From Escherichia coli (lineage in GTDB: Bacteria > Pseudomonadota > Gammaproteobacteria > Enterobacterales > Enterobacteriaceae): a DNA stretch of 64,000 nucleotides. Shown here one piece after another: positions 43,427 through 57,092 of the stretch. The notes below the pieces were generated by a model. That model made no database searches. It was given only the letters and a program-made list of their open reading frames with translations, and was not told the DNA's origin. The DNA lies in the NCBI RefSeq assembly GCF_030013205.1, contig NZ_CP122648.1; one strand, written 5' to 3'. Made by a program: the position numbers and the translations under genes. Every line of letters begins with the position of its first letter. Within the stretch, counting starts at the first letter, position 1.

Positions 43427-43472
43427 TATTCAAAGAAGAGCTCGTACGAAAGTAGGGGCTTTTTTTTCGCAT
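43408..43472. repeat. direct repeat copy 1 (tRNA-Ser 3' end plus terminator)
   Basis: aatccccccctcaccgccatattcaaagaagagctcgtacgaaagtaggggcttttttttcgcat. Confidence 0.7.
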
Positions 43473-43587
43473 ATTGCACACACCGGGGGGATGAGAAGCC
43501 CCGACCGGGGTTCGACAACTGGCGCAGCCAGTTGGACAGACCACGAACACAGTGAGTGGGCTGCCCGCAGGGCGAGCGAAGCGAGTC

Positions 43588-43651
43588 AATCCCCCCCTCA
43601 CCGCCATATTTAAAGAAAAACTCGTACGAAAGTACGAGTTTTTTTTCGCAT
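43588..43651. repeat. direct repeat copy 2 (duplicated tRNA-Ser 3' end plus terminator)
   Basis: aatccccccctcaccgccatatttaaagaaaaactcgtacgaaagtacgagttttttttcgcat, near-identical to copy 1. Confidence 0.7.
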
Positions 43652-43889
43652 TTTATCTGCCTGTACGGCAGTGAACTCAAATACTACACGTTTAGTCCGT
43701 TATTAATAAAGCAAAACCATCTCATTTTCCTGCTACCACCCTTTTTTATCCTTACCTTCCCGCAGCACTAATTATCAACAACTTACCATCATCATCAAAA
43801 AAAGGGTCTGAACCTCCTCCACCCCATAAACAAAAAGTCCGTAACCTCTTTCGAGATTACGGACTTCACCAACCTACCTGACAATTAGA

Positions 43890-46166
43890 TTAATGCGCTG
43901 CTTCCGCCTTGTGCTTTTGTGCACTCTGGAATCCGTAAGTCAGCTCATTTTTCTCTTTATCCAGCGCGACGGTGACCTGACCGCCGTCCACCAGCGAACC
44001 AAACAACAGTTCGTTGGCGAGCGGTTTTTTCAGGTTGTCCTGGATGACACGCGCCATCGGACGTGCGCCCATTGCCCGGTCGTAACCTTTCTCGGCTAGC
44101 CAGTTACGCGCTTCCTGGCTCACTTCCAGAGAAACACCTTTCTGATCCAACTGAACCTGCAACTCGACGATGAATTTATCCACTACCTGATGGATCACGT
44201 CGGTTGACAGATGATCGAACCAGATAATGTTGTCGAGACGGTTACGAAACTCCGGCGTAAAGATCTTCTTGATCTCTTCCATCGCATCGGTGCTGTTGTC
44301 CTGGTGGATAAGACCAATCGATTTACGCTCAGTTTCTCGTACCCCAGCGTTGGTGGTCATCACCAATACCACGTTACGGAAGTCCGCTTTGCGTCCGTTG
44401 TTATCGGTCAGCGTACCGTTGTCCATCACCTGCAACAGAATATTGAACACGTCCGGGTGCGCTTTCTCGATTTCGTCCAGCAGCAGCACCGCATGTGGAT
44501 GCTTGATGACCGCATCAGTCAGCAAACCGCCCTGATCAAAACCAACGTATCCCGGAGGCGCACCAATCAGACGGCTGACGGTATGGCGTTCCATATACTC
44601 GGACATATCAAAGCGCAGAAGCTCAATGCCCAAAGCTTTCGAAAGCTGTAGCGTCACCTCTGTTTTCCCGACCCCGGTAGGGCCGGCAAACAGGAACGAA
44701 CCGACCGGTTTATGTTCGTGACCTAAACCTGCACGCGCCATCTTAATGGCTTCAGTCAGCGCCTCGATGGCTTTATCCTGACCGAAGACCAGCATTTTCA
44801 GGCGATCGCCGAGGTTTTTCAGGGTATCGCGGTCACTCTGAGAAACACTCTTCTCTGGAATGCGCGCAATACGGGCCACCACGGACTCAATATCCGCCAC
44901 ATTAACGGTTTTCTTGCGTTTGCTTACCGGCATCAGGCGTGCGCGAGCGCCCGCTTCGTCGATAACGTCAATGGCTTTATCCGGCAGATGACGATCGTTA
45001 ATGTATTTCACCGCCAGCTCTACCGCTGCACGCACCGCTTTTGCGGTATAACGCACGTCGTGGTGCGCTTCATACTTCGGTTTCAGGCCATTGATGATTT
45101 GAACAGTTTCTTCGATCGACGGTTCAGTAATATCAATTTTCTGGAAGCGACGCGCCAGAGCACGGTCTTTCTCGAAAATGTTGCTGAACTCCTGATAGGT
45201 TGTCGAACCAATTACGCGAATTTTACCGCTGGAGAGCAACGGTTTGATTAGGTTAGCCGCATCGACCTGACCACCAGACGCTGCACCCGCACCGATAATG
45301 GTGTGGATCTCATCAATAAACAGGATGCTGTTAGTGTCCTGCTCCAGCTGCTTGAGCAACGCTTTAAAACGTTTTTCAAAGTCGCCGCGATATTTTGTGC
45401 CCGCTAACAGAGAACCGATATCGAGAGAGTAAATCGTACAGTCAGCCATCACTTCCGGCACATCGCCCTGAACAATTCGCCAGGCAAGACCTTCTGCAAT
45501 CGCGGTTTTACCGACACCAGATTCCCCCACCAGCAGCGGGTTGTTTTTACGGCGACGGCAGAGAACCTGAATAGCACGCTCCAGCTCCTTCTCACGACCA
45601 ATCAGTGGGTCGATTCCGCCCACGCGCGCAAGCTGATTCAGGTTCGTCGTGAAATTCTCCATACGTTCCTCCCCACCAGCTTGTTCTTCGCTGTTTGGCT
45701 GGCTGCCAGGATCAGAAGACTGTGTCGGCTCGTCTTTACGCGTGCCATGAGAGATAAAGTTCACCACATCGAGACGGCTGACTTCATGTTTACGCAACAG
45801 ATATGCCGCCTGCGACTCCTGTTCGCTAAAGATAGCGACCAGAACGTTTGCACCGGTAACCTCATTGCGACCGGAGGACTGGACATGGAAGACCGCACGT
45901 TGCAGTACACGCTGAAAACTCAGCGTCGGCTGTGTGTCGCGCTCCTCTTCACTGGCAGGCAGAACAGGTGTGGTTTGTTCAATAAAGGCTTCCAGTTCCT
46001 GACGGAGCGCAACCAAATCCACAGAACACGCTTCCAGCGCCTCCCGGGCAGATGGGTTACTGAGCAGCGCCAGTAACAAGTGCTCGACGGTCATAAACTC
46101 ATGACGGTGCTCGCGCGCTCTGGCGAAAGCCATATTTAAACTGAGTTCCAGTTCTTGATTGAGCAT
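43890..46166 (-). CDS. clpA: ATP-dependent Clp protease ATP-binding subunit ClpA
   Basis: ATG at 46166 ([19 protein letters not shown]...), 758 aa, two AAA+ modules. Confidence 0.95.
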
Positions 46167-46196
46167 AGGCACCTCCCCCAATTTTTATGCCTGCAT

Positions 46197-46517
46197 TCAG
46201 GCTTTTTCTAGCGTACACAGCAATGGATGCTCATTCTCCCTCGCGTACTTGTTCACCATCGCCACTTTGGTTTCTGCAACCTCGGCGGTAAAGACTCCGC
46301 AAATGGCCTTCCCCTGGTAGTGAACAGCGAGCATCAATTGCGTTGCACGTTCTACATCATAAGAAAAGAATTTTTGTAACACGTCAATAACAAACTCCAT
46401 CGGAGTGTAATCATCATTGACTAATATCACTTTATACATAGATGGCGGTTTTAGCGCGTCGCGAACTTTTTCTTCCGCCAGTTGATCAAAGTCCAGCCAG
46501 TCGTTCGTTTTACCCAT
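46197..46517 (-). CDS. clpS: Clp adaptor ClpS
   Basis: 106-aa [46 protein letters not shown]... Confidence 0.95.
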
Positions 46518-46690
46518 TGTCAGTTATCATCTTCGGTTACGGTTATCGGCAGAACGCCCTGCCGCTGACAAGAGCTTATTTGCCTGACCAATCTACTCCA
46601 CATGATAGATAACTATCATTTATATCATTTAGTTAATTAGTCTTTATTTTTCATTATGTTGCAAATAACAACCCCGTCAAAAACAGTGAT

Positions 46691-46715
46691 ATTAACTACA
46701 CCATTAACTACACCG
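46691..46715. repeat. island-end repeat attaactacaccattaactacaccg (tandem 12-mers)
   Basis: Near-identical 25-mer at 57068..57092; both followed by CGAACAA-type motifs. Confidence 0.6.
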
Positions 46716-47303
46716 CTTCACGAACAATATCGAACAACCGCGAACAAAGATCAACACGCTTTAATCATTATCATTTTCCGGCTATCCGTCATGAAGCTGG
46801 TGGATGATCTGCGTGGTGATTTCCACCATTCAGAGCAGGGGCGGTCATCATGACCATGCCATAACAAAAACCCCATATTCGTGGTTTTTCTGTGTCGGGG
46901 CTATTCTGCTGTTGCCGTGCTGGTGGATATTCTCCGGTATGCGGCTCCCCATATCGGCATCAGGCCCACCAGCGTGAAGCGTTTTTCATTTTTCGCGGGT
47001 ATAAAAAATCGATGGGGCGGGCAGTCCTGAAGACGTCAGGGTACGGAGATTTGACCCGCCCCTCCCTGTGCATGAGCACAATAAGTAACCGAAGGCGGAA
47101 TTCCGCCCTCGGTACTTACATATGAGAAACGATATTTCTTCCACCGATACCCTTTATTTGGGTATTGCGAGTAAGCCCCAAAATCTGGGTGTTACTCTTA
47201 CTACCCAAACTACGGGTAGTTTCCGTAGTTTCATGGTCGAGTTGCAAATCTGCAACTCACCCACCAGCCAACGCAATTTTGCGTTATCGGGAATATCAGC
47301 AAG

Positions 47304-47591
47304 TTACCGCCGCAGTCGTTCCGGCTTCTTCCACTGGTAAGTATTTTTCGCGCTCTCCCTCCGTTGTTGAGAACGGCGACGGTATGCCAGCAACTCAAGG
47401 ACTCTGGTTCGTATGTTGCGCATATCCACGCCGTTAAGCTCAATACCATCACGGCGCATCACCTCAGCAACAACACGCGCGTAATTTTCAGCGGTGACTG
47501 TATCCGGCTGCGCGGCCTGTTCGTCAGCCAACTGGCTGATTCCACCAGCACAGCGGATTAATCGCAGTATTTCAGATTCGGTCATTATCAT
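47304..47591 (-). CDS. hypothetical protein downstream of terS-like gene
   Basis: 95-aa ORF, ATG overlaps the upstream stop. Confidence 0.5.
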   Translation of the reverse strand: MIMTESEILRLIRCAGGISQLADEQAAQPDTVTAENYARVVAEVMRRDGIELNGVDMRNIRTRVLELLAYRRRSQQRRESAKNTYQWKKPERLRR

Positions 47592-48073
47592 GCCTGTTTT
47601 GCGACCTCATTCACTACGTCATTTTTTACCATCCGGCTGATAATCTGATTACACAAATCGTCAATAATTGACTGCACTCTGTTTACTGCCATCGGTTTAA
47701 GCCCGGCATCACGTGCCAGAATATTGGGGAGTTTTGCCAGTTCCTCGCTTACGATTTCCCCCCATATAGCCATCTCTTTTCGCACATCATCGGCGGGTAT
47801 GAGTTGCGCCGTTTCCTGTTCGAACTTGAGGCGTTCACGTTCGGACTGATACCAGGCCTTACGGTCTTGTGGCTCCATTTCTTCCAGTGATGCCGGAACG
47901 GGAAGATCAAGAAAACAGGTCAGAATGTCAGTCACCCGATAGAGTTTCAGCTTGTCATGCCCTCCGGCTGGCTGGATGTTTTTCAGCCTTGCCGCCGCAG
48001 TCTGACGACATATTCCCGCTATCGCCGCCAGTTGATTAATGTTCAGCATCAGATTTTTCAGTTCTCGATCCAT
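47588..48073 (-). CDS. Nu1-like small terminase subunit / packaging-redirection (Rpp-like) protein
   Basis: ATG at 48073 (MDRELKNLMLNINQLAAIAGICRQTAAARL...), N-terminal wHTH plus coiled coil resembling lambda Nu1; the track start at 48160 is TTG. Confidence 0.55.
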   Translation of the reverse strand: MDRELKNLMLNINQLAAIAGICRQTAAARLKNIQPAGGHDKLKLYRVTDILTCFLDLPVPASLEEMEPQDRKAWYQSERERLKFEQETAQLIPADDVRKEMAIWGEIVSEELAKLPNILARDAGLKPMAVNRVQSIIDDLCNQIISRMVKNDVVNEVAKQA

Positions 48074-48226
48074 ACCCGCTCCAGAATGTTTTAAACATGC
48101 ATCTTGCGAACAACTTTCAGAAGAGGTCAAAAAATGCGCTATATGTTGAGCATAAAACAAGCAAAATTAACATGCCAAAAATAAAAATACTTAAAATTCA
48201 ATACAATATGAAGATGATGATGACGA

Positions 48227-48322
48227 ATGAAAATGCAAAAACTAGCCTTTTTCCGCGCCGCTCCCGCCCCGTGGCAGACCACTCCACCGGGAGGACCCGT
48301 AAAAAAGGCGGCTGTCGCCGCC
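48227..48322. repeat. conserved intergenic element A (about 72 nt shared with element B, then a GC hairpin)
   Basis: About 85 percent identical to 50761..50832; hairpin ggcggctgtcgccgcc at 48307..48322. Confidence 0.6.
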
Positions 48323-48329
48323 CTTGTTG

Positions 48330-50243
48330 TCATGCTCCACTCGATTTCAGTAATCCGCGATAATCGAGGGCCGCGACACCTGCATCTATGCGCACTTTCC
48401 AGGCGACACCATCAACAGTAAAGCCCACCTGCTCCTCAAGATATGGCGTATCCATACCATCAAGATAAGCGACTTCTATTGTGTCCATCCCCTTAGCTGC
48501 GGCTACATACCATTCCTTGCTATTGGCCTTATCAAGACGTGGCTCAACAATTACTTCTGCCATATCTTTCACCACGTTAATGATGCCGGGGTTCTGATTG
48601 ATAGTGCTCTCATCACCAACCGGAAAGACTGATGACGATGACAGAATGGCGCGACGCGCGGCAGATTCCAGCGCGGCAGGGACCAGAACAAAAGCAGGGG
48701 TAATATTCAGTGAGTCGCCGTTAGCATCCTCCTGGAGGCGCATCAGCTTACGGGCTTCATCAAGCCCCACCATGTCCATATCCTTCGCAATAAGATTTTT
48801 ATGATCGGCATGGAATAACGCTTTACCATCCGTAAATTTGCCGTTGCTGGTTAACAGAAGATAAACCAGATTACCTACTGTTCTGGCGGCCGCACGCCCC
48901 ATCGCCATGGGGATTGTAGTTAACTGGGTCAGGTCATCGTTGATAATGGCCTGACGGGTAACAGAAAAAATATTACCGTATGTGGCCAGCGCAATAGGTA
49001 CACCTTTATCGCTGGTGGTGATGTATTTATATTCCGCACCTTCCGGTACTTTATCCAGCTTTGAAAAACCATTCAGACCAACGCGCTTTGCTTCATGAAA
49101 GTTTGAAAGCGATCCGGTACGCGTCCATTTCTGGAACGTTTCGCCGCTGTCCTGCCAGCCTTTCAGCACTGATTTTTCAGCACCACCAGCCAGAATATGA
49201 GAAAAATCGCTGCTGCTGTGTGTGAAAGCTGCATTAACGACCTGCGAGCGATTTAAAAAACTGCCAACACTGATACCACGATCAGTTAGTGATGCCTGGG
49301 CCATTTCAAAAAGGCTCATCATCGCGTAAGGATTTCCCCGCTCTGGGCGTTCATACCCAAGACGAGAATAAAGCCCCTGACGAATTGCATCGCCTGTTAT
49401 GTTCCCGTTACCGGCATAAATATGAGTCGGGATATTTTTATTGGATGGCGTGGACTCGCGCCCCAGCTCGTTCAACAACTTTTCACGGGCCATCTCCGGT
49501 GTACATGATGCATCCTCCAGGCACGCCATTTTGATCCCGTCGTAACGACTGCCGAACAGGCTAAACACTTCACTTATTCCGTTGATGCGCTTCTGTTCAT
49601 TACCAGCAATATTGGCTGCTCCCTGTGGCGGGGTAATCATTCCTTTAATGGTTTCAGGCATGTGTGAAAAATCTCCTGTGCGTTTCGATTCAATTCGCGC
49701 CATTGCTGTGACAGATGGCAACAATTCATCAGCAAAACCGTGCTTAAGGCATTCTTTCCCGTCCATCCAGGTTTCATCTTCCAGCATGGCGGTAATTTCC
49801 TGTGCTGATTTGCCCGTTTTTCTGGCATAAGCAGGGACTAACACGGTTTCCACCTTATCCAGCAAATCAGCATAATCACGCATATCACCAGCATTTCCGC
49901 CAGAGATACCCCACGGCTTATGTATCATCATCATGGCGTTTTCCGGCATCACAACACGATCGCCAGCCATTGCGACAACCGAAGCCATTGAAGCCGCAAC
50001 ACCATCGATATAAACCGTAATTTCTGCCGGATGATTCCGTAACAGGTTATAGATGGCGATGCCTTCAAACACGTCACCACCTGGCGAATGGATCCGCAGG
50101 TCGATATGTGAGACATCGCCCAGGGCTTTCAGGTCTTCCGCAAACTGCTTCGCGGTAATACCGAAGCCGCCAATTTCTTCATAGATGGATATTTCTGCCG
50201 CTCCGCGAACACCCAGCGCCTTAATGGTGTACCAGTGATTCAT
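48330..50243 (-). CDS. prohead protease (ClpP/S49-like) fused to HK97-fold major capsid protein
   Basis: Single 637-aa ORF; N-terminal serine-protease-like region (HSPGGDVFEGIAIYN...), C-terminal roughly 400 aa capsid-like. Confidence 0.8.
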   Translation of the reverse strand: MNHWYTIKALGVRGAAEISIYEEIGGFGITAKQFAEDLKALGDVSHIDLRIHSPGGDVFEGIAIYNLLRNHPAEITVYIDGVAASMASVVAMAGDRVVMPENAMMMIHKPWGISGGNAGDMRDYADLLDKVETVLVPAYARKTGKSAQEITAMLEDETWMDGKECLKHGFADELLPSVTAMARIESKRTGDFSHMPETIKGMITPPQGAANIAGNEQKRINGISEVFSLFGSRYDGIKMACLEDASCTPEMAREKLLNELGRESTPSNKNIPTHIYAGNGNITGDAIRQGLYSRLGYERPERGNPYAMMSLFEMAQASLTDRGISVGSFLNRSQVVNAAFTHSSSDFSHILAGGAEKSVLKGWQDSGETFQKWTRTGSLSNFHEAKRVGLNGFSKLDKVPEGAEYKYITTSDKGVPIALATYGNIFSVTRQAIINDDLTQLTTIPMAMGRAAARTVGNLVYLLLTSNGKFTDGKALFHADHKNLIAKDMDMVGLDEARKLMRLQEDANGDSLNITPAFVLVPAALESAARRAILSSSSVFPVGDESTINQNPGIINVVKDMAEVIVEPRLDKANSKEWYVAAAKGMDTIEVAYLDGMDTPYLEEQVGFTVDGVAWKVRIDAGVAALDYRGLLKSSGA

Positions 50244-50449
50244 TGCTCCCCCCCAGATGCAAAACCATTCTTATCAAGCCACGCGTTAACCGCGTGTCTG
50301 ACAATCTGCGCCGCACCTGGTAATGGTTGGTCAGGATGATGATTTATGTGGTCGATCCTGTACTGCTTAAGGCGCATAACGGTCTGCGCATCCAGATGAA
50401 CGGAACCACCTTTTACCTCGCCTGTGTTCAGGTCGTTAATACAATTCAC
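50240..50449 (-). CDS. hypothetical small protein (non-ATG start)
   Basis: 69-aa ORF with GTG start and AGAGGA RBS; stop overlaps the capsid start. Confidence 0.4.
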   Translation of the reverse strand: MNCINDLNTGEVKGGSVHLDAQTVMRLKQYRIDHINHHPDQPLPGAAQIVRHAVNAWLDKNGFASGGEQ

Positions 50450-50760
50450 AGTAACTTCCTCTTACTGACTAAACTGCGCGCATTATTGATCGATAAAAGT
50501 GGTAGATAAACATATTTCTATCATAAAAATAGATTAATCAGATTCAGACACAAAAAAGCCGGAGAGAATCCGGCATAAATATCCCGCCATCTGAACACGT
50601 TTTGCACAGGCAACTCCATCTGGCAGGTGAAAAACAAATTTATTTATATATTTCAATTAATTGCAAACTGGTCTAATGACAGGGAGAAAAAAATATTGTA
50701 CAGGTGAAAACAGAAATAACTTTTAATTATCAATAAATTACTACACATGCTGCCGCCGCC

Positions 50761-50858
50761 ATGAAAATGCAAAAACCAGCCTTTTTCCGCGACGCTCCCG
50801 CCCCGTGGCAGGTCACTACACCGGGAGGACCCATAAAAAAGCCGGATTGCTCCGGCTT
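50761..50858. repeat. conserved intergenic element B (copy of element A core, different terminal hairpin)
   Basis: atgaaaatgcaaaaaccagcctttttccgcg...ccgggaggaccc then gccggattgctccggc hairpin with T-run on the minus strand. Confidence 0.6.
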
Positions 50859-50872
50859 CTGTTACTCGTTGC

Positions 50873-51295
50873 TTAAAACGGTATGTTATCCCCGTACGGA
50901 TCATCATTTCCCGCCTGTTGTTTTGCTCTGCTCAGTGCATCAGTAGCCTGCCCCTGTTGGCCTTTTTTGCCGCCCGGTCGCGCCGTTCTCGCACTGATTA
51001 CGCTGTCTGCGATAACCTGCCAGCCCTGCCGCGTCTCCCCGTTCTGTCCGGTCCACTGGCTCACCTGCATGTTACCCGCCACGCTCAGGAGTTCACCCTT
51101 GCGGTGCTTTGCCAGTGCTTCGGCCTGTCTGCCAAACGCCAGGACGGATAACCACATCGTCGCCGTTCCGTCATCTGCCTGGCTGCACGGAAGTGGGACC
51201 GCCATACTCGCCATCGTCATTTGTGTACCCTTGCTGGTGGTCTTTAACTGCGGGTCAGCCACCAGCCGCCCGTAAGCCGCTATCTGTGCTGTCAT
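50873..51295 (-). CDS. single-stranded DNA-binding protein (SSB-like)
   Basis: 140 aa, OB-fold-like N-terminus and acidic C-terminal tail DDPYGDNIPF like the SSB DDDIPF tail. Confidence 0.65.
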   Translation of the reverse strand: MTAQIAAYGRLVADPQLKTTSKGTQMTMASMAVPLPCSQADDGTATMWLSVLAFGRQAEALAKHRKGELLSVAGNMQVSQWTGQNGETRQGWQVIADSVISARTARPGGKKGQQGQATDALSRAKQQAGNDDPYGDNIPF

Positions 51296-51537
51296 GCTGT
51301 CTGCTCTCCGGTTTTAACGTTGATGGTTGTCACCTGTTCCGCTTCGGCAATCTCCCGTTCTGTCAGCGTGGCAAAGTTTGCAGCTGCCGTTGTCATGAAT
51401 GAGCTAATCAGTTCGGGATGTGCTTTCGCATATCCTTCCCCGGCGTTGCGGTCGATGATTTTTATCGACACCCTTAACCAGTGTTCCGTCAAATCAAGGG
51501 CGTGCGATTGTGATTTTTTTGTGTGCTTCGCTGTCAT
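51292..51537 (-). CDS. hypothetical protein
   Basis: 81-aa ORF overlapping the SSB start. Confidence 0.45.
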   Translation of the reverse strand: MTAKHTKKSQSHALDLTEHWLRVSIKIIDRNAGEGYAKAHPELISSFMTTAAANFATLTEREIAEAEQVTTINVKTGEQTA

Positions 51538-51583
51538 AGGCTTTATCTCACAGCAGTAAATTAAAATTTTTGCGTTTTAACCC

Positions 51584-51812
51584 TTCACCTGTTCACCTTT
51601 TGATATTTTATCTTTTAATTCATAATGTTAAGGGGTGAACAGTTTCACAAAAACTATTCACCAACTGTTCACCACTGTTCACCCTTGAAGCTCAATAAAC
51701 AATCAAAAAGGTGAACAGTGAATAGTTTGGTGAACAGTTCATAAATAACTGTTCACCCTATAACATACTGATACAAAAGATATTTATGACAGGGTGAACA
51801 GTGGTGAACAGT
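51584..51812. repeat. iteron array: at least 9 copies of TGTTCACC/GGTGAACA in both orientations (P4 ori/crr-like)
   Basis: Octamers counted at 51590, 51634, 51666, 51676, 51710, 51729, 51750, 51793, 51803, with TATTCACC variants; immediately downstream of the alpha-like gene. Confidence 0.7.
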
Positions 51813-51824
51813 TATTCCATAAGT

Positions 51825-53642
51825 TTAATTTTTGCTATCGTCATTAGTGACCGATACACATGATGGCATCCAGTCTTCTGATTCCTCCGTCAGTGTCACG
51901 TTTGAACGCAAACCGTGCTTCGTTTTCCGTTTCATATACTCCCTGCCATATTCCGCCATTGCCCCCGGCATATCTTTACCGAAGCGCGTCAGTGTTACAG
52001 GTTTACCAAACCCATGTGCCCTCATATAAGCCAGATAGGCATGATAGAGATACCTGCGTGGGCTGAATGGCACAATTTCAGCATTACCCACTAACAGGCC
52101 ATCACACATTACCGACGCCATGAGATAGCCGCAGAAGTCCACCAGCGAATCCCCCTCTCGCTTTATCGCCAGTGCTTCTTCAGATTTCTGCTGCTCATAT
52201 AACAGGCGTCTGGCTTCGTCCTGGTCAGCAAACCGTGTAAGCAGATGGCGAATCACTACCGCCAGCTCACCTTCTATTTTTTCCGCCAGCATTGGATCGC
52301 GTTCGTTCTCCGGTACAACTTCCGAAAAATTGAATATCACCCGACGACGTGAGATCCCCCCGCTGCGGTCACTGAATGACATGGCGTTATTGTTAACCGC
52401 CAGCACTACTGCCGGAATACGCGTTGAGTAGGGGGCTTTGTGTTTCGGGTCAATTGCCACCTTGTCACCGCCTGTAATGGCCTTAATTCCTGCCCCATCA
52501 CCAGCGTAGCGGGTCATATCCGGCATGATAATCAGCGAAAAGCCAACCACTAACGCGCGTTCCCTTGCATCTTCCAGCGCCTTCATGCTTGCCGATACTG
52601 TGTTGGCCTTACCCGCCAGCATGGTGCAAATCTCCGCCATCACGCTTTTACCACTTCCCCCTGGACCTGTTACCTCAATGAATAACTGCCAGTCGTACCG
52701 GTTCGCCAGCACCATGAATAATGCAGCCAGTACGCGATCCGCCTTGCGGTCATTCTCAGCCACCGAACGGCGTAACCACTTCCAGAAATTCGGCGCATGT
52801 GTTGCCAGCGTTTCCCCCTCTGCTGGTGGGCTGAAAGGTAATTCACTGGCAATTAACAACCAGTCGTTTTTGTTATGCTCCCGAAAATTACCTGTTCTGG
52901 TATCAAATACCCCGTTACTGAATCCAATCAGGTTACGGGCTGTATTCCCCATAACAGGCAAACTTAACTTCATGGTATCGACCGCCGATTTAATGGCGTT
53001 CTGCGAATAGCTGATCTCCGCATCAATGAAAATCTGTGCCATAGCTCGCTGTAATTCTTTATCCTGTACTGGCTCCCATACAACGCCGTTGTAATGGTGA
53101 ACAGTGTCAGAGTCAGCATGAATCGCCAGTTCACCGCCATAATGTGCCAGGAGAACTTCGCCGCGTTGACTTGCTCCCATCTGGTTAAGCGCCAGTGATG
53201 AAGCGTTATCGTCTTTTACCCGCTCTTTTTTCTTTACAGGCAGTTCAACTACCTTTTTCTTTTCCGCCTGCTCTGCCCGTTCACGTTCCAGATATTCGCG
53301 CCAGTTCTCCCGTTTCTGGCTGTGCATTCCTTCAGGGTAATAATCAGCATCCCTGACACCTGCCGCTGCCAGTTTCTGCCCGATGGTATTAACAAGCCCC
53401 GGACGCAATAACCCCGCCTGGTAGAGACGCACGCGATAGCGTCCGTCCGGTACGATTTGCAGGTTGTCCAGTTCGGCAAGTTGTTGCTCTCCAAGCCAGA
53501 CAGGTGGCACGTTATCGCCAGCCAGTCGCCCGTCCTGTTCCTGCCACTGCTTCGCATGTGCCCACGCATCACTACCCGCAAAAATGATGACTTCCGTCAT
53601 TTTGTCACGCGGCTGGTGTTTTAAATTTGGCGCTTTTTTCAT
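51825..53642 (-). CDS. P4 alpha-like replication protein (D5_N / SF3 helicase, primase-helicase family)
   Basis: Walker A GPGGSGKS; ATG at 53642 with GGAGAG RBS; the track start at 53657 is GTG. Confidence 0.8.
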   Translation of the reverse strand: MKKAPNLKHQPRDKMTEVIIFAGSDAWAHAKQWQEQDGRLAGDNVPPVWLGEQQLAELDNLQIVPDGRYRVRLYQAGLLRPGLVNTIGQKLAAAGVRDADYYPEGMHSQKRENWREYLERERAEQAEKKKVVELPVKKKERVKDDNASSLALNQMGASQRGEVLLAHYGGELAIHADSDTVHHYNGVVWEPVQDKELQRAMAQIFIDAEISYSQNAIKSAVDTMKLSLPVMGNTARNLIGFSNGVFDTRTGNFREHNKNDWLLIASELPFSPPAEGETLATHAPNFWKWLRRSVAENDRKADRVLAALFMVLANRYDWQLFIEVTGPGGSGKSVMAEICTMLAGKANTVSASMKALEDARERALVVGFSLIIMPDMTRYAGDGAGIKAITGGDKVAIDPKHKAPYSTRIPAVVLAVNNNAMSFSDRSGGISRRRVIFNFSEVVPENERDPMLAEKIEGELAVVIRHLLTRFADQDEARRLLYEQQKSEEALAIKREGDSLVDFCGYLMASVMCDGLLVGNAEIVPFSPRRYLYHAYLAYMRAHGFGKPVTLTRFGKDMPGAMAEYGREYMKRKTKHGLRSNVTLTEESEDWMPSCVSVTNDDSKN

Positions 53643-53938
53643 TTCGGCTCTCTCCACGCGGCAATCATGTTTTTCAGTTCCTGCAGTTTTTTATCCACAT
53701 CCACACGTGACACATGGTTATTTCTGGAAGTCGGGATTTCCCGCCGGAATCTGCTAATAAAGATCTCCACGTTCAGCGAACTATGAAATGAATAGCCATC
53801 ACGAATAAAATACACACGGTCAAACATCAGTTCTTTTACCGTTACTCTGTTACCGTTCTTATCCAGATAAATAGCGCCGGGGATAATTTTGGGGTGTGCA
53901 TAACCGCTGGCAGTCAAGCCAGATAAATATGTTCTCAT
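53639..53938 (-). CDS. hypothetical protein
   Basis: 99-aa ORF, overlapping start/stop with the alpha-like gene. Confidence 0.45.
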   Translation of the reverse strand: MRTYLSGLTASGYAHPKIIPGAIYLDKNGNRVTVKELMFDRVYFIRDGYSFHSSLNVEIFISRFRREIPTSRNNHVSRVDVDKKLQELKNMIAAWREPK

Positions 53939-53944
53939 GATTAT

Positions 53945-54265
53945 TTATCCCCGATTTGAATCAGTATTCGCTTTCTTTATGGCATTTAATGCATCTGTGG
54001 CATTTTCAATGGTGCACCGTAACGAAATATCAAACTGCCCAAGCATTGCCAGTAACAAACCGATATTACCCATATCAATGCGCATGGCCTTTTCGTCATA
54101 GTCCTCATTTTCTGACGCATGCCACATCAGGCTACCAATTGACGCAACAGCCATTGATATATTGTCAGTAGCCCCATCAGCAGCGGAATAAACCTTTTTA
54201 GCAATATCATGCTCACAGTTAAAATGCGGATTAATCAGGTACTGGTAATTTGACATATCAGGCAT
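53945..54265 (-). CDS. hypothetical protein
   Basis: 106-aa ORF. Confidence 0.45.
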   Translation of the reverse strand: MPDMSNYQYLINPHFNCEHDIAKKVYSAADGATDNISMAVASIGSLMWHASENEDYDEKAMRIDMGNIGLLLAMLGQFDISLRCTIENATDALNAIKKANTDSNRG

Positions 54266-54461
54266 GGCACACCCCCTGACGAATACGGGCGGCGAATACC
54301 ATCACGTAGCCAGCCGGGGATTGCTGGCGTGCTTCCTGTTCACTGGTGGCCTCAATGGTAATCACGCGCGGTTGTGCCGTGCTCAGGGCGATAAAACGCC
54401 AGATGTATTTATTCAGGTTGTACGAGTCCCGCCCTTGCGGGTGTCTGGTATAATTTCTCAT
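54258..54461 (-). CDS. hypothetical small protein (real part of a spurious 302-aa track ORF)
   Basis: Internal ATG at 54461 with GAGG RBS (MRNYTRHPQGRDSYNLNKYIW...). Confidence 0.3.
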   Translation of the reverse strand: MRNYTRHPQGRDSYNLNKYIWRFIALSTAQPRVITIEATSEQEARQQSPAGYVMVFAARIRQGVCHA

Positions 54462-54540
54462 AGCTGCCTCGATACTGTTGCTATCGTTGGTGGTTAGACG
54501 CCCTGCATGTGTGCCACCACTGCGGGGCGTTGTTGCTTGG

Positions 54541-54630
54541 TGCATCGCACCATTCGTTTTTAACCTATCAGCAAGTGAATCGCACTTCAAGCCTTTCTCT
54601 GAAATTTTTTTTGTGTATACTGAATCGCAC
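54541..54630. promoter_or_regulatory. three direct repeats TG(C/A)ATCGCAC plus a TATACT -10-like box upstream of the RHH gene
   Basis: Copies at 54541, 54576 and 54621; TATACT at 54616..54621. Confidence 0.4.
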
Positions 54631-54651
54631 CAACTTAGAGAGGATTCAGTA

Positions 54652-54831
54652 ATGGCAACAGGTTCAACAAATAATAAGTCGCAACAGTTAAATGCCAGAT
54701 TCCCGCATGATGTTGTTGCAGACTTAGAAAAAAATTTAGATGAAGGTGAAAGCAAGGCGCAATTTATAGTTACTGCCGTTAAAGGCGAGATCAAACGCCG
54801 CCAGCGCCGCAAGGCCAAAGAGCAGGAGTAA
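54652..54831 (+). CDS. ribbon-helix-helix (Arc/CopG-like) DNA-binding protein
   Basis: 59 aa; N-terminal beta-strand-like LNARFPHDVVADL; GAGAGG RBS. Confidence 0.55.
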   Translation: MATGSTNNKSQQLNARFPHDVVADLEKNLDEGESKAQFIVTAVKGEIKRRQRRKAKEQE

Positions 54832-54873
54832 CCATCACCAGCGCCGTGGTGTGAGTAACTACGGCGCATTGCT

Positions 54874-55062
54874 ATGCAGGACAACACAATGACCGATAAA
54901 GAATTGACCAAAACATTATCACCGGCACGGAAAAGACGGCGCAGAAAGATAGAGCATGAATCAGAAAGATTCGCGCCATGTGCTTTTGCTCTTGAGAAAT
55001 TCCTTAAAGAGCACAGGAAAAAGCTCTCGTTGCAAACCTTGGAACGAACCAAATCTGACTGA
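54874..55062 (+). CDS. hypothetical small basic protein
   Basis: 62-aa ORF followed by hairpin ggcgaccgcccccggtcgcc with T-run. Confidence 0.3.
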   Translation: MQDNTMTDKELTKTLSPARKRRRRKIEHESERFAPCAFALEKFLKEHRKKLSLQTLERTKSD

Positions 55063-55176
55063 TCACATTGCCCACCAGCCGCAAATGTGGCATTGTTGGT
55101 GATGCGTTCAAGTTTAGTGTGTATCCATTGGCGACCGCCCCCGGTCGCCTTTGTTTTATATGTCATATGCTCCCCT

Positions 55177-55386
55177 TTACGCTGCCTTGCCTGAATTAAT
55201 GCGATCCCGGCTTTTAACCCATTCCATAACCTCGGACAGCAGCCAACCTACAGAACGACCGCCCAGATTACGGCGTGACGGGAAATTCCCTTTTTTCTCC
55301 AGTTCATAGCGTGTAGTGCGACACACTCCAGTTAACTTACGACATTCATCCTCACGGATTACGCGATCTTCATTTATTTCACGCAT
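55177..55386 (-). CDS. alpA: AlpA-family transcriptional regulator
   Basis: 69 aa, MREINEDRVIREDECRKLTGVCRTTRYELEKKGNFP... typical AlpA/Xis HTH. Confidence 0.8.
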   Translation of the reverse strand: MREINEDRVIREDECRKLTGVCRTTRYELEKKGNFPSRRNLGGRSVGWLLSEVMEWVKSRDRINSGKAA

Positions 55387-55805
55387 ACAAAAACCTACAT
55401 AAAAAATTACGTATATAAACTTTTCTCTTAGCTGTAGATATATGAGATCGGATATTACTTAGATTCTTTTTTCACCTCTTAAATTAAAAACACAACCTTG
55501 CTAAAGGCTTTGTTCGCTAAGGTTCGTAGAAGCTCGTTAGTGTTTAAAATCGTGTCACGAGTTTTTAAGCGATGCAACAAAAAATGTCGTTACTTGGCAT
55601 TACGCTTGAATTATCTCATTAAAAACAAATAGATAAACCATCAAGTGTTGGAACAATCAAGAAACAGAGAATAAAAGTTCAGAAGAAGACATTCCAATTT
55701 TTTGATGGTTGACATATATAAAGCGAAGATATTTGCAGATATTTTCCGATATTCTACGATTTATTCACGGCTGTAATCTCTTAAAGAAAAAACAGCCGTA
55801 ATTTG

Positions 55806-57053
55806 TCAAGAATTTTGGGGGTAAATTCGCGGGGTCATAACAACGATTTTTTCATCATTGTTCTGGAGAAGCTCGAGACGGTCTACCCATAGATTAAGAG
55901 CATCACGTTTTGCATCAAGATAACGGGAGTGGTTATAGACTCGTTGCATCCCCGGCATCTGGTGGGCGGTAAGCTGCTCGACAATATGCGGATCCACGCC
56001 TAAATCGTTCAGCATGGTTGTAAATGTGTGCCGGATGTCATGCAACGACCAGGGGGCTTGATTAATGCGTCTGTGTGCCGTTCTTCCGTACTCTGCTACG
56101 GATGATTGCCCTTTCAGTTCTCCAAGCAATAAGCCCGTGTGCCTGTTCTTCTCCACCAGCTTCATGACAAACGGCAAGATCGCTTCCGGTATTGGCCTGA
56201 ATATTGCTACCTTCGTTTTGCTGTGTTCTTTCGGCACAGTCCAGAGCATTTCTTTAAAATCCCATTCCTGAACCTCGGAGCGTCTTAGCTCAGTGGTACG
56301 GCATCCAAAGACAATCAGAAGGCGAATTAAGGCGCTGTAGTACGGCGGGAAAATTTTTTCATCCAGTGCGCGGAGTAGCTCGCCAAGCTCCTTGTTTGTT
56401 AGCACTCGCTCGCTTATTTCTGCTTTTTTTCCCACATCACCTACGACCATATCATCAAGAACGTTACTGACGGCGTAGCGACGTTTACGGCAGTACTTAA
56501 GCGCCTGCTTGCATACCTGCAACAAAAAGCCGGCTGATACCGGATTACGCTTAGCAAGCTGGTCAAAACAGGCCAGCCAGTGGCGTAACTCGCATTTATC
56601 CAGCGGCATAGCACCAATCTGGCTGATTATGTGCTTATTGATCCGGCTTTTCAGTGATTCGTGGTCAGTGCGCTTTTCCTTCGCGTATGACTCAAGCCAG
56701 TAAGTGATCGCGTCCTTAACCGTTACAGGTGCTAACGCTTCCTGCACTGTGTGATTAAGCTCATGGCGTGGATTTTTCCCCTCCGCCAGCCAGGCGCGAC
56801 ACTGTGCCGCTTTTTCTCTGGCTGCTTTCAGGCTCAGATCGGGATAGTTGCCCAGTCTCAGGCGTTCCGGTGATACCTGCCTGCCAGTTCCGGCCCTGTA
56901 AGTGAAATACCAGGTTAACAGGCCATTGGTTGAATGCCTTACGCTAAGGTTGCCACCATCATTAAAAAAGGTGTTTTTTGTGGTTGGTGATCCGCTTAAT
57001 TTTCGTAAAAGAGTGTCGCTAAGTCTATGAATTGCCCTGCTCATGTTTCGCAT
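55806..57053 (-). CDS. int: tyrosine integrase (P4-type)
   Basis: 415 aa with catalytic-region motifs (HDIRHTFTT, YNHSRY); at the island end next to cspD. Confidence 0.9.
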   Translation of the reverse strand: MRNMSRAIHRLSDTLLRKLSGSPTTKNTFFNDGGNLSVRHSTNGLLTWYFTYRAGTGRQVSPERLRLGNYPDLSLKAAREKAAQCRAWLAEGKNPRHELNHTVQEALAPVTVKDAITYWLESYAKEKRTDHESLKSRINKHIISQIGAMPLDKCELRHWLACFDQLAKRNPVSAGFLLQVCKQALKYCRKRRYAVSNVLDDMVVGDVGKKAEISERVLTNKELGELLRALDEKIFPPYYSALIRLLIVFGCRTTELRRSEVQEWDFKEMLWTVPKEHSKTKVAIFRPIPEAILPFVMKLVEKNRHTGLLLGELKGQSSVAEYGRTAHRRINQAPWSLHDIRHTFTTMLNDLGVDPHIVEQLTAHQMPGMQRVYNHSRYLDAKRDALNLWVDRLELLQNNDEKIVVMTPRIYPQNS

Positions 57054-57067
57054 TTCCGGTCATCAAA

Positions 57068-57092
57068 ATTAACTACACCATTGACTACACCG
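57068..57092. repeat. island-end repeat attaactacaccattgactacaccg
   Basis: 24 of 25 identical to 46691..46715; 15 bp beyond the integrase start. Confidence 0.6.

What the first reader, a model, noticed from the sequence alone, without database searches (positions are those of the whole stretch)
46716..47303. Hairpin-dense noncoding stretch at the island left end
About 590 bp with no credible ORF (only short overlapping frames) contain at least six strong stem-loops. These include an 11-bp-stem hairpin accgaaggcgg-aatt-ccgccctcggt (about 47087..47112), a nested ggggcggg...cccgcccc structure (about 47024..47063), and gagttgca-aatc-tgcaactc (about 47239..47258). Most lack T-runs, so they are not simple terminators. 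This could be a structured ncRNA or a cluster of protein-binding palindromes.
Basis: seen in the sequence. Interest (0 to 1): 0.5.

Follow-up and report, generated by a model that had tools for sequence, protein, structure and literature searches.

The report
Phage-satellite tail carrying a borrowed cos site
The hairpin-rich stretch is the non-coding tail of a small phage-parasitic island in E. coli; its best-defined part is a packaging (cos) site copied from SfV/SfI/P27-type phages, next to a terminator and a conserved four-palindrome block of unknown function.

Summary
The left 350 bp fold no better than shuffles.

The stretch is the non-coding tail of a 10.6-kb PICI-type phage satellite inserted between clpS and cspD. 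It is a mosaic rather than one RNA:
- **cos site.** The "nested GGGGCGGG...CCCGCCCC" feature is an 83-bp block, 90-96% identical to the HNH-terS intergenic cos region of SfV, SfII, SfI and ST64B (about 82% to phiP27). It includes the experimentally mapped SfI cohesive end TGCCCGCCCC.
- **Terminator.** The 11-bp-stem hairpin is terminator-like on the strand that carries the island's genes.
- **M2 block.** gagttgca...tgcaactc belongs to a 123-bp four-palindrome block found in 705 of 5426 E. coli genomes; every copy examined lies in a satellite tail. Its function is unknown.
- **Left end.** This part holds integrase arm-type repeats.
- **Other features.** There are four Chi sites, and an IHF-consensus box followed by a hairpin.

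Rfam gives no match and no ORF is conserved. The island also carries two lambda-type cos sites, so the tail cos is a third one, of a different packaging class. This is a new variant of a known strategy. None of these functions was tested.

The parts
46603..46619 (.). Attachment-site identity block (TGATAGATAACTATCAT). Its partner is at 57212-57228 (TGATAAATAACTATCAT). The island spans about 46620-57228.
   Evidence: Genomes without the island match the window only up to 46623. The repeat is read directly.
46623..46635 (+). IHF-consensus-like site TATCATTTAGTTA (1 mismatch to WATCAANNNNTTR), directly beside the att core.
   Evidence: Consensus match only.
46691..46714 (+). Doubled arm-type motif ATTAACTACACC x2. 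A co-oriented second copy is at 57069-57092. Putative integrase arm sites.
   Evidence: (D2). The geometry is about 80 bp and about 130 bp from the two core copies. This parallels the doubled motif described for HE-PICI attP sites, which has a different sequence (PMC10111431).
46721..46747 (+). Three CGAACAA repeats at exact 10-bp spacing (46721, 46731, 46741). Similar repeats occur at the other island end. Putative excisionase or integrase binding array.
   Evidence: Read directly. The function is inferred.
46796..46803 (+). Chi site GCTGGTGG.
46919..46926 (+). Chi site GCTGGTGG. It forms an 8-bp inverted pair with the Chi at 46966-46973, which is one of the 'stems'.
   Evidence: (I14).
46966..46973 (-). 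Chi site (CCACCAGC on the + strand).
46984..47066 (-). cos block, 83 bp, spanning -53 to +30 around the cut. It is copied from the HNH-terS intergenic region of SfV/SfI/ST64B/phiP27-type phages.
   Evidence: matches to phage termini and to the annotated phiP27 cos-site. (alignment A2). (the same block lies between the HNH and P27-family terS genes in a prophage).
47014..47023 (-). Cohesive-end sequence TGCCCGCCCC.
   Evidence: Identical to the 10-nt gap mapped experimentally for SfI (PMC3636060). It corresponds to the annotated phiP27 cos-site CGCCCGCCCC.
46990..47002 (-). TATACCCGCGAAA at +12 to +24. Eleven of its 13 positions (the ACCCGCGAAA core and the first T) are invariant across all phage and satellite copies. 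Candidate small-terminase recognition site.
   Evidence: Conservation line of A2. By analogy, the HK97 TerS minimal site is at +15 to +29, with the CCCG + A/T-tract read at those positions (PMC11331095). Inferred.
47068..47081 (.). Perfect short palindrome TGTGC-ATGA-GCACA, at the junction between the conserved block and the variable cargo.
47082..47118 (-). Terminator-like hairpin. Core stem 47088-47113 has 11 pairs (8 G-C), loop AATT, tail TACTTATTGT. The extended stem is 17-18 bp.
   Evidence: The one non-Watson-Crick pair is G.T on the - strand and A.C on the + strand (read). The stem is kept in diverged copies.
47141..47263 (-). 'M2': conserved 123-bp block of four palindromes (GAGTTGCA/TGCAACTC; AAACTACGG/CCGTAGTTT; GAGTAA..TTACTC; GATACCC/GGGTATC). 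Function unknown.
   Evidence: z about -8 on both strands. Present in 705 of 5426 E. coli genomes. In every copy examined it lies in a satellite tail. No match in phages.
47261..47268 (-). Chi site, about 240 bp upstream of the cos cut and in the orientation active for RecBCD entering at the free cos end.
   Evidence: Orientation logic from PMC12315714.
47264..47306 (-). Tail unit with three parts: an IHF-consensus box (+ strand TATCAGCAAGTTA, 47294-47306, overlapping the stop codon of the 93-aa gene), a hairpin AACGCAAAATTGCGTT (47271-47286), and the Chi site above.
   Evidence: Related islands carry 1-7 such units with covarying stems.
47304..47585 (-). Last gene of the island (93 aa, phrog_1561, no known function). 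It always precedes this kind of tail, including in the prototype EcCICFT073.

Best explanation
The stretch is the non-coding tail of a Gram-negative PICI-type phage satellite (about 46620-57228), lying between the satellite's last gene and its attachment site. It is a mosaic of DNA- and transcript-level signals rather than one RNA gene.

Read in the direction of the island's genes (- strand), the modules are:
1. **47306-47264.** A unit made of an IHF-consensus box, a small hairpin and a Chi site.
2. **47263-47141.** A conserved four-palindrome block (M2) of unknown function. It is most likely part of the 3' untranslated end of the late operon or a protein-binding array.
3. **47118-47082.** A strong hairpin with a U-rich tail that probably terminates the operon.
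4. **47066-46984.** A complete cos region copied from SfV/SfI/ST64B/phiP27-type temperate phages, which package with HNH + P27-family TerS + TerL.
5. **46983-46759.** A spacer with three more Chi sites.
6. **46758-46620.** The attP arm, with integrase arm-type repeats, a 10-bp-phased repeat array and an IHF-like site.

Proposed mechanism. After excision and replication, a helper phage of the SfV/P27 class would recognise TATACCCGCGAAA with its small terminase. It would then cut at TGCCCGCCCC and package satellite concatemers from cos to cos. This would be independent of the two lambda-type cos sites the island also carries (about 48263 and 50797). The island could therefore exploit two unrelated helper families. 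The Chi sites flanking the cut would restrain RecBCD at the free ends.

Shown here: the homology, position, completeness and spread of the cos block, the location of the excess structure, the mosaic architecture, and the absence of a conserved ORF or Rfam family.

Inferred: cutting and packaging, termination, IHF binding and the Chi effect.

The confidence given is for the composite identification (satellite tail with a phage-derived cos block, terminator-like hairpin and att arm). That the cos is actually used for packaging I would put at about 0.5.
For: **Island identity and borders**
- define the genes and borders. P4-type TGTTCACC ori iterons lie downstream of the primase gene.

**cos block**
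- 46984-47066 matches, at 90-96%, the genome termini of SfV/SfIV (1-47), SfII (23-105), SfI (last 53 nt) and ST64B (last 83 nt).
- It matches phiP27 across the annotated cos-site at 81.8%.
- In an O157 prophage the same 83 bp fill the HNH-terS(P27) intergenic gap.
- The 10-nt TGCCCGCCCC equals the experimentally mapped SfI cohesive end.
- Alignment A2 shows that identity starts at GGGAGGGGCGGG and stops just before the phage terS ribosome-binding site, so the whole intergenic signal was captured.
- ACCCGCGAAA is invariant even in distant phiP27. It sits where HK97 TerS binds (+15 to +29).

**Spread of the block**
- It recurs at the same place in satellites with different late modules and different integration sites: clpS, tRNA-Ile/mug and thiM.
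- About 250 genomes have it at >=95% identity across the 101-nt query that includes the satellite-specific flanks.

**Other cos sites**
- Two lambda-like cosQ-cosN sites elsewhere in the island align to lambda cos.
- They correspond to cos1/cos2 of EcCICFT073.

**Remaining modules**
- Terminator-like hairpin on the - strand, with very strong folding.
- Four Chi sites in 588 bp, against 24 in the 64-kb window. My Poisson estimate is about 1e-4.
- Nearly all related tails carry Chi.
- Arm-type doubled motif at both ends, with geometry like that described for HE-PICIs.
Against: - No experiment: neither cutting at this cos nor transcription of the tail was observed.
- The identical host genome (NZ_CP062865.1) has no second copy of this cos, so no resident helper of that class. 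Among seven listed satellite-borne copies, only one genome had further copies.
- Some satellite copies carry CCAGCCCC instead of CCCGCCCC. This could be tolerated variation or decay.
- The island's own capsid-protease fusion and DUF1441 TerS-like genes point to a Gifsy-2/lambda-type helper rather than an SfV-type one.
- The function of the most structured part (M2) is not explained. Its longest hairpin is broken in the one diverged copy.
- The terminator call rests on a pattern scan that finds 2.5 such sites by chance in 2 kb. In L097 the same stem lacks a T-run.
- The IHF and arm-site assignments are consensus matches only.
Confidence: 0.75

Rival explanations
1. The structured part (47067-47303, - strand) is a functional RNA. 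It could be a 3'-UTR-derived small RNA, or an RNA stabiliser or decoy ending at the 47088-47113 terminator. The hairpins would then matter in the transcript.
For: - z about -7 to -8.
- Terminator-like end on the - strand.
- The non-Watson-Crick pair of the big stem is G.U on the - strand and A.C on the + strand.
- Several substitutions among copies give G.U on the - strand.
- The hairpin of the unit type at 47264-47303 shows clear compensatory changes across 28 unit variants, with 0-1 of 1000 partner shuffles as good and G.T 14 versus A.C 4 on this strand.
Against: - No Rfam match.
- No promoter-like site upstream on the - strand.
- The + strand folds equally well.
- M2 copies are 79-100% identical, with no double compensatory change.
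- In L097 the 6+4-bp hairpin is broken, and one change gives A.C on the - strand.
- The kept features are short perfect palindromes, one with only a 2-nt spacer (AAACTAC NN GTAGTTT). That fits a DNA operator better than an RNA hairpin.
Confidence: 0.2
2. The cos block is an inert relic of recombination between the satellite and an SfV-like prophage. The tail as a whole would be a junkyard of module junctions, terminators and att remnants with no packaging role.
For: - Extreme mosaicism of the tails.
- Many tails lack the block.
- The prototype EcCICFT073 transfers without it.
- No cognate prophage in the host genome.
- CCAGCCCC variants exist.
Against: - The block covers exactly the phage HNH-terS intergenic signal, from -53 to +30.
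- Its cohesive-end sequence is identical to a mapped one.
- It is co-oriented with the island's genes and with its two lambda-type cos sites.
- It sits at the same position in satellites of different backbones and integration sites.
- It is >=95% conserved, flanks included, in about 250 genomes.
Confidence: 0.15
3. A small protein is encoded here: the 26-codon frame 47234-47154 on the - strand (MKLRKLPVVWVVRVTPRFWGLLAIPK), or the + strand frame annotated as an 89-aa hypothetical protein in related islands.
For: - Six different nucleotide versions encode the same 26-aa peptide.
- In that frame, 10 of 20 variable sites in the M2 core are synonymous, against 3-6 in the other five frames.
- PGAP annotates an 89-aa ORF in L009, and the protein is on record as hypothetical.
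Against: - No ribosome-binding site.
- The diverged copy L097 has a stop after 13 codons.
- In other tails the frame runs on for 66 or 82 codons into unrelated sequence.
- The 9-nt 'in-frame' deletions lie between 9-nt direct repeats.
- The + strand frames are shifted by 1-nt and non-triplet indels among homologues, and the window's own copy is split.
- No Pfam or PHROG match.
Confidence: 0.04

Closest known systems
cos site of SfI / SfV / SfII / ST64B / phiP27 temperate phages (HK97-like packaging with HNH + TerS + TerL)
   Same: - 83 bp shared: 90-96% identity with SfV/SfII/SfI/ST64B and about 82% with phiP27.
- Identical 10-nt cohesive-end sequence TGCCCGCCCC.
- Same flanking 8-bp inverted repeats.
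- Same invariant ACCCGCGAAA downstream.
   Different: Here it is not flanked by HNH and terS genes. It sits in a satellite tail, between a hairpin and the att arm. The satellite encodes neither an HNH nor a P27-family TerS.
Helper-cos carriage by satellites: P4 (P2 cos) and cos-type SaPIs such as SaPIbov5 (phi12/phiSLT cos, HNH-dependent)
   Same: A satellite carries the helper's own cos, so the helper terminase packages it. The strategy is described in bioRxiv 10.1101/2022.09.08.507074.
   Different: This is a Gram-negative PICI. It additionally has two lambda-type cos sites and a DUF1441 TerS-like gene, so it carries cos sites of two packaging classes in one element.
EcCICFT073 cos1 / cos2 (prototype E. 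coli PICI)
   Same: - Same island family and gene order.
- Same 93-aa last gene followed by a tail.
- Lambda-like cosQ-cosN sites inside the late region.
   Different: - In EcCICFT073 both cos sites flank rppA and are lambda-type.
- Its tail has three IHF-box/hairpin units but no M2 and no SfV-type cos.
- The window's island has DUF1441 instead of rppA.
REP/BIME elements of E. coli, in particular the IHF-binding RIP/RIB type (from my own knowledge)
   Same: Mosaic arrays of short imperfect palindromes combined with an IHF consensus site, placed just after stop codons at operon ends. The stems covary.
   Different: No sequence similarity to REP. The units are satellite-specific, with no match in phages, and often end in a Chi site.
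Chi clusters near the cos end of recombination-module-less lambdoid phages (LLS, ST64B type)
   Same: Chi density far above background, next to cos, with an active-orientation Chi close to the free end.
   Different: Only four sites here, in both orientations. The island-wide bias is weak (8 versus 5).

Membership tests
SfV/SfI/P27-type cos site | Sequence homology to the mapped phage cos region, including the cohesive-end sequence. | tested here: met
   90-96% identity over 83 bp to SfV/SfII/SfI/ST64B termini, and 81.8% to phiP27 across its annotated cos-site. TGCCCGCCCC is identical to the mapped SfI gap.
SfV/SfI/P27-type cos site | Presence of the region where the small terminase binds, downstream of the cut. 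| tested here: inconclusive
   The block extends to +30 and contains the invariant ACCCGCGAAA. The binding site is known only for HK97, at +15 to +29, and HK97 TerS gave no hit to the Pfam family that matches SfV and P27 TerS.
SfV/SfI/P27-type cos site | Cleavage by terminase/HNH and packaging from this site. | not testable with these tools
   Needs transduction assays and end mapping.
Gram-negative PICI satellite (the island that owns the stretch) | Size of 10-20 kb, int, AlpA-type regulator, primase with adjacent ori, late zone, att repeats, and unidirectional genes. | tested here: met
   10.6 kb. int 55806-57053, HTH 55177-55386, primase 51825-53657, iterons 51582-51812, capsid fusion, DUF1441, and a 17-bp att repeat. 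The architecture matches PMC10111431 and EcCICFT073.
Gram-negative PICI satellite (the island that owns the stretch) | Induction, excision and transfer by a helper phage. | not testable with these tools
   No experimental data for this island.
Intrinsic (Rho-independent) terminator | G+C-rich stem-loop followed directly by a U-run on the transcribed strand. | tested here: inconclusive
   11-bp stem with 8 G-C pairs and tail TACTTATTGT (6 T in 10) on the - strand. The scan finds 2.5 hits by chance in 2 kb. A diverged copy keeps the stem but has no T-run.
Any described RNA family (Rfam 15) | Covariance-model match at or near the gathering score. | tested here: not met
   Best hit in 46600-47350 is 16 bits against a gathering score of 39. 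All hits are chance-level.
IHF binding site | Match to WATCAANNNNTTR with an A/T-rich flank. | tested here: met
   TATCAGCAAGTTA at 47294-47306 and TATCATTTAGTTA at 46623-46635 each have 1 mismatch. In related tail units the consensus positions are kept while the four N positions vary. Binding itself was not tested.
Chi (RecBCD hotspot) | Exact octamer GCTGGTGG at a density above background. | tested here: met
   4 in 588 bp against 24 in 64 kb. RecBCD dependence was not tested.
Protein-coding small gene | Open frame kept across diverged homologues. | tested here: not met
   Premature stop in L097, variable extensions, and frameshifting indels.

The most novel reading that the evidence does not exclude
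Two readings remain open.

(a) This satellite lineage carries cos sites of two unrelated packaging classes: two lambda-type sites, plus one SfV/P27-type site in a cargo slot of its tail. It could therefore be mobilised by two different helper phage families. The tail would act as a swap-in slot for packaging signals and defence genes.

(b) The 123-bp four-palindrome block M2 is a new satellite-specific regulatory element. It is about 79-100% conserved in 13% of E. coli genomes and lies in a satellite tail in every copy examined. It could be an RNA, or an operator array acting in satellite-helper interplay.

The probability given is for (a) being functionally true. For (b) I would give about 0.15.
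Probability: 0.45. Interest if true: 0.6.

Novelty: new variant of a known kind. Interest (0 to 1): 0.45.

Why it matters
PICI satellites move virulence and defence genes between enterobacteria, and which phages can mobilise a given island sets its host range. The described E. coli PICIs use lambda-type cos sites read with the help of Rpp. Capsid-forming PICIs bring their own terminase. A plain copy of an SfV/P27-class cos placed in the tail of islands that also keep lambda-type cos sites would give one island two independent routes into virions. [quoted passage not shown]" (PMC6739421).

The work also shows that the tail after the conserved 93-aa gene is a recombination-prone slot. In different islands it holds cos blocks, an abortive-infection gene, IHF-box/hairpin units and Chi sites. 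This gives a concrete place to look for satellite cargo. It also points to an unexplained, highly conserved palindrome block (M2).

Tried and rejected
- **Rfam.** Scans of 22 kb and of the 750-bp region alone gave nothing relevant.
- **tRNA/tmRNA scan.** Only serW, outside the region.
- **93-aa neighbour gene.** No PDB, Pfam or named PHROG match. The AlphaFold model is three helices with mean pLDDT 67, too weak for a fold search, so none was run.
- **Is the 93-aa protein an Rpp homologue?** Rejected. In EcCICFT073 rppA (c1503) would be one of the separate genes upstream of the 93-aa gene.
- **Other species.** Two scans of representative genomes with the 93-aa protein found nothing, so no cross-genus covariation set could be built.
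- **Small-ORF readings.** Rejected.
- **M2 as a replication origin or crr.** Rejected. The ori iterons are TGTTCACC, downstream of the primase gene, and do not occur in the tail.
- **M2 or the IHF-box units as phage-derived cosB.** No phage match. In EcCICFT073 the lambda-type cos sites flank rppA rather than lying in the tail.
- **GGGGCGGG/CCCGCCCC as a required hairpin.** Rejected. Its fold is within chance, and several satellite copies break the complementarity.
- **Failed script.** One script of mine hung in a shuffle routine and gave no result. The segment folding was redone with the folding tool.
Full report
**1. Context**

The window is E. coli chromosome. It runs infA, tRNA-Ser, clpA (43890-46181, -) and clpS (46197-46517, -), and further right yljB, cspD and macB.

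Between clpS and cspD lies a 10.6-kb island whose protein-coding genes (apart from two short annotated + strand ORFs) are all on the - strand:
- integrase, 55806-57053
- a 69-aa HTH protein, plus Icd-like genes
- a P4-alpha-like primase, 51825-53657
- ssb
- a ClpP-protease/major-capsid fusion, 48330-50243
- a DUF1441 (small-terminase-like) protein, 47588-48160
- a 93-aa protein of unknown function, 47304-47585

Of 5426 complete E. coli genomes, 5424 match the clpS side of the junction. All but 365 match it only up to about 46623. A 17-bp repeat, TGATA(G/A)ATAACTATCAT, occurs at 46603-46619 and 57212-57228. The island therefore spans about 46620-57228.

This gene order is that of Gram-negative PICI satellites. 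It matches the prototype EcCICFT073, which I located next to phoQ in CFT073. That island also ends with a 93-aa homologue followed by a tail of about 550 bp. The finding (46716-47303) is this tail.

**2. The observation**

The named stem-loops are present, with small coordinate shifts. The 588 nt as a whole fold much better than shuffles, with z = -7.7 (+) and -9.6 (-).

Folding by segment shows the excess is confined to two segments:
- 47067-47140: z about -6 to -7
- 47141-47263: z about -8 on both strands

The att arm, the 46759-46983 spacer, the cos block and the 40-nt unit at 47264-47303 are within or near chance. 'Hairpin-dense' is therefore true for about 200 nt, not for 590.

**3. The tail is a mosaic**

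A megablast search against complete E. coli genomes found parts of the 801-bp query in 1250 genomes but the whole of it in only 134. Different sub-segments occurred in different islands.

I collected about 60 tails that lie downstream of the 93-aa gene, from IMG/VR and RefSeq. Module boundaries fall at these window coordinates:
- 47264
- 47141
- about 47066
- about 46984-46933
- about 46806

The islands involved are of four kinds:
- classical PICIs
- capsid-forming PICIs, with HNH, a P27-family TerS, TerL and portal
- islands with a lambda-E-type capsid and a decoration protein
- helper-embedded PICIs, inserted in a prophage terminase gene

**4. The cos site**

*Homology to phage termini.* A BLAST search against phage genomes matched only 46984-47066. 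The matches were:
- bases 1-47 of SfV and SfIV
- bases 23-105 of SfII
- the last 53 nt of SfI
- the last 83 nt of ST64B
- the annotated 'cos-site' of phiP27

On the - strand the window reads GGGAGGGGCGGGTCAAATCTCCGTACCCTGACGTCTTCAGGACTGCCCGCCCC|ATCGATTTTTTATACCCGCGAAAAATGAAA.

*The cohesive end.* The 10 nt TGCCCGCCCC (47023 to 47014) are identical to the gap mapped experimentally between the ends of SfI virion DNA (PMC3636060). They correspond to CGCCCGCCCC, annotated in phiP27.

*Position in phages.* In phages this block fills the gap between the HNH endonuclease gene and the P27-family terS gene.

*Extent of the captured block.* Alignment A2 shows that identity between satellite and phage copies begins at GGGAGGGGCGGG. 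It ends just before the phage terS ribosome-binding site. The whole intergenic signal, from -53 to +30, was captured.

*Likely TerS site.* ACCCGCGAAA (+15 to +24) is invariant in all seven sequences, including distant phiP27. In HK97 the minimal TerS site is at +15 to +29 (PMC11331095). Read at those positions, the HK97 left end shows a CCCG motif followed by an A/T tract. HK97 belongs to the same HNH-dependent class and has a 10-nt 3' overhang. The HK97 left end reads ...TAACCCGATTTTTTT. The window has TATACCCGCGAAAAA at a similar distance. This is an analogy, not a test.

As a fold it is within chance. Some satellite copies break the complementarity with CCAGCCCC or GGTGCGGG. The hairpin as such is therefore not what is conserved.

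*Spread.* The 101-nt cos query matched 1649 of 5426 genomes. Most matches cover only the 83-bp phage block. The one such hit I inspected lies in a prophage between the HNH and terS genes. About 250 genomes match at >=95% across the whole 101-nt query, which includes the satellite-specific flanks. I verified satellite contexts at three integration sites:
- the clpS site
- a tRNA-Ile/mug site
- a thiM site, in a capsid-forming PICI

*Absence of a resident helper.* The host genome identical to the window has only the one copy, so no resident helper of this class.

**5. The island has two more cos sites, of lambda type**

One lies upstream of the DUF1441 gene and the other near 50797. Both contain TTTA(C/T)GGGTCCTCCCGGTG...CCACG|GGGCGGGAGCG(G/T)CGCGG. 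This aligns with lambda cosQ-cosN...TTTACGGGTCCTTTCCGGTGATCCGACAGGTTACG|GGGCGGCGACCT.

This is the 'cos1/cos2' situation described for EcCICFT073: lambda-like cosQ and cosN with a different cosB. In CFT073 itself the two sites flank rppA, and the tail has no cos.

The SfV-type cos in the window's tail is therefore an additional site of a different packaging class. It is co-oriented with the other two and with the genes. I found no paper describing this, but my literature search was limited.

**6. The strongly structured 200 nt**

*The 11-bp-stem hairpin (47088-47113; extended stem 47082-47118).*
- It is flagged as terminator-like on the - strand, with 8 G-C pairs and the tail TACTTATTGT.
- Its single non-Watson-Crick pair is G.T on the - strand and A.C on the + strand.
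- Diverged copies keep a stem: L097 has GAGGGCGG/CCGCCCTC, and L007 re-pairs with a bulge. L097 has no T-run.
- I read it as the probable terminator of the island's late operon, placed just before cos.

*M2 (47141-47263).* This block holds four near-perfect palindromes. It occurs in 705 of 5426 genomes at 79-100% identity. In every case inspected it lies in a satellite tail. It does not occur in phages.
- Variation is too low for a covariation test.
- Among 21 variants there is no double compensatory change, there are two to four changes to G.U on the - strand, and there are a few disruptive changes.
- The diverged L097 copy keeps AAACTAC..GTAGTTT, GA(G/A)TTGCA..TGCAACTC and GATACC..GGTATC. 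It breaks the 6+4-bp hairpin.

*The 26-codon frame.* This frame (MKLRKLPVVWVVRVTPRFWGLLAIPK) looked interesting at first. Six nucleotide versions encode one peptide, and 10 of 20 changes are synonymous. Against it:
- it has no ribosome-binding site
- it is stopped after 13 codons in L097
- it runs on into unrelated sequence in other tails

I reject it. The function of M2 remains unknown.

**7. The 40-nt unit at 47264-47303, and its relatives**

Related tails carry 1-7 copies of a 43-45-nt unit:
- TAAC-NNN-TTGATATTYYCGR
- a 5-11-bp stem with a 3-4-nt loop
- YCGG or CTGG

The stem sequence differs from unit to unit (CCTCA/TGAGG, CAGCC/GGCTG, CCCCC/GGGGG, CCTGC/GCAGG, GCGCA/TGCGC, GTGCA/TGCAC...) while pairing is kept.
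- In 18 units with 3-nt loops, 72% of cells pair, against 59% in partner shuffles (0 of 1000 shuffles as good) and 23-43% when the partner is slid.
- In 10 units with 4-nt loops, 91% pair against 79% (1 of 1000).
- G.T outnumbers A.C 14 to 4 on the gene strand. This leans towards a transcript-level hairpin, but the units are not independent.

The conserved box, read on the other strand, is the IHF consensus WATCAANNNNTTR, and the four N positions are the variable ones. The TAAC was not part of my first search pattern, yet it was always present.

In the window the box is TATCAGCAAGTTA (47294-47306, one mismatch), and its TTA is the stop codon of the 93-aa gene. The unit ends in a Chi site.

These arrays have no match in phages. 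EcCICFT073 has three of them. The closest analogy I know is the IHF-binding BIME/RIP class of REP elements. That comparison is from memory and was not tested.

**8. Chi**

GCTGGTGG occurs four times in the 588 bp: 46796 (+), 46919 (+), 46966 (-) and 47261 (-). There are 24 in the whole 64-kb window and 13 in the island.

With the window rate, 0.22 are expected. By my arithmetic the Poisson probability of four or more is about 1e-4.

The pair at 46919/46966 forms one of the 8-bp 'stems' (I14). Almost every related tail has one to four Chi sites.

By the logic described for Rec-less lambdoid phages (PMC12315714), the - strand Chi at 47261 is correctly oriented for RecBCD entering at the free end left by a cut at this cos, and lies about 240 bp from it. 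The two + strand sites are correctly oriented for entry at the other end. This is inference.

**9. The left end (46621-46760)**

This segment is not palindromic. It holds:
- an IHF-like site beside the core
- a doubled ATTAACTACACC motif, repeated in the same orientation at the other end of the island
- three CGAACAA repeats spaced exactly 10 bp apart

The geometry of the doubled motif is about 80 and 130 bp from the core. A doubled motif of different sequence is reported at 81 and 132 bp in HE-PICI attP sites, where it is proposed to bind the integrase arm domain or AlpA.

**10. Verdict**

The finding is real in part and is explained mostly by known kinds of signals in a known kind of element. 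The new points are:
- the extra cos of a second packaging class in the tail
- the picture of the tail as a modular cargo slot
- the unexplained M2 block
- the covarying IHF-box/hairpin units

No function was tested.

Noticed in passing
window 48161-48329 and about 50700-50870 (- strand): Two lambda-type cos sites (cosQ GGGTCCT... and cosN ACG|GGGCGGGAGCG...), each preceded by a terminator-like hairpin. One is upstream of the DUF1441 gene; the other lies between ssb and the capsid region. They are about 80% identical to each other and correspond to cos1/cos2 of EcCICFT073.
   Followed up: partly
window 51582-51812: Replication origin downstream of the primase gene: at least ten copies of the iteron TGTTCACC/GGTGAACA in both orientations. 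From memory, this is the same octamer as the P4 ori/crr type I repeat.
   Followed up: no
window 46653-46680 (- strand): A good sigma-70-like promoter (TTGACG-16-CATAAT, 10 of 12) in the island's att arm points outwards towards clpS. The insertion lies about 100 bp upstream of clpS, so the island may supply or alter clpS-clpA transcription.
   Followed up: no
window 47304-47585 (-); L101:3374-3655; alignment A1: A 93-aa protein (phrog_1561) is the last gene of every satellite examined: PICI, capsid-forming PICI, helper-embedded PICI and EcCICFT073. It is 74-98% conserved and has a basic C-terminus. It has no Pfam or PDB match. The AlphaFold model is three helices with pLDDT 67. Its stop codon overlaps the IHF-like box.
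   Followed up: partly
L009:2919-3610, L011:2285-3140, L101:3656-4215 and other tails: There are arrays of up to seven IHF-box/hairpin units. A second repeat type is interspersed with them: CTGAATGG-X-X'-ACGCAG-X'-AAGGC, in which X can pair with either X', giving alternative hairpins. It occurs in satellite tails; an array of both repeat types had no match in the phage collection.
   Followed up: partly
L097:1746-2507: In a helper-embedded PICI inserted in a prophage capsid E gene, an 'abortive infection family protein' gene sits in the tail, just after the M2 + hairpin block. This is the position where the window has the cos block, so the same slot holds different cargo.
   Followed up: no
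L007 and L008 (E. coli O157:H7 146N4 and strain 2A): Close relatives of the window's island are inserted inside a prophage terminase gpA gene (helper-embedded configuration). The prophage has the same ClpP/capsid-fusion head type as the satellite.
   Followed up: no
window 43471-43680: Downstream of tRNA-Ser(GGA) there is an RtT-type repeat (Rfam RF00391, 47 bits against a gathering score of 45). It overlaps several long spurious ORFs on both strands.
   Followed up: no
L002:7709-7831 and L011:5438-5560: Capsid-forming PICIs have, between their own HNH and terS genes, a cos-like region of the same architecture but different sequence: GGGGTGGGGGGCG...CCCGACCCCGCC...TTTTTATGCACGGGAATTTTTT. One of them (L099) also carries the SfV-type cos in its tail.
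   Followed up: no
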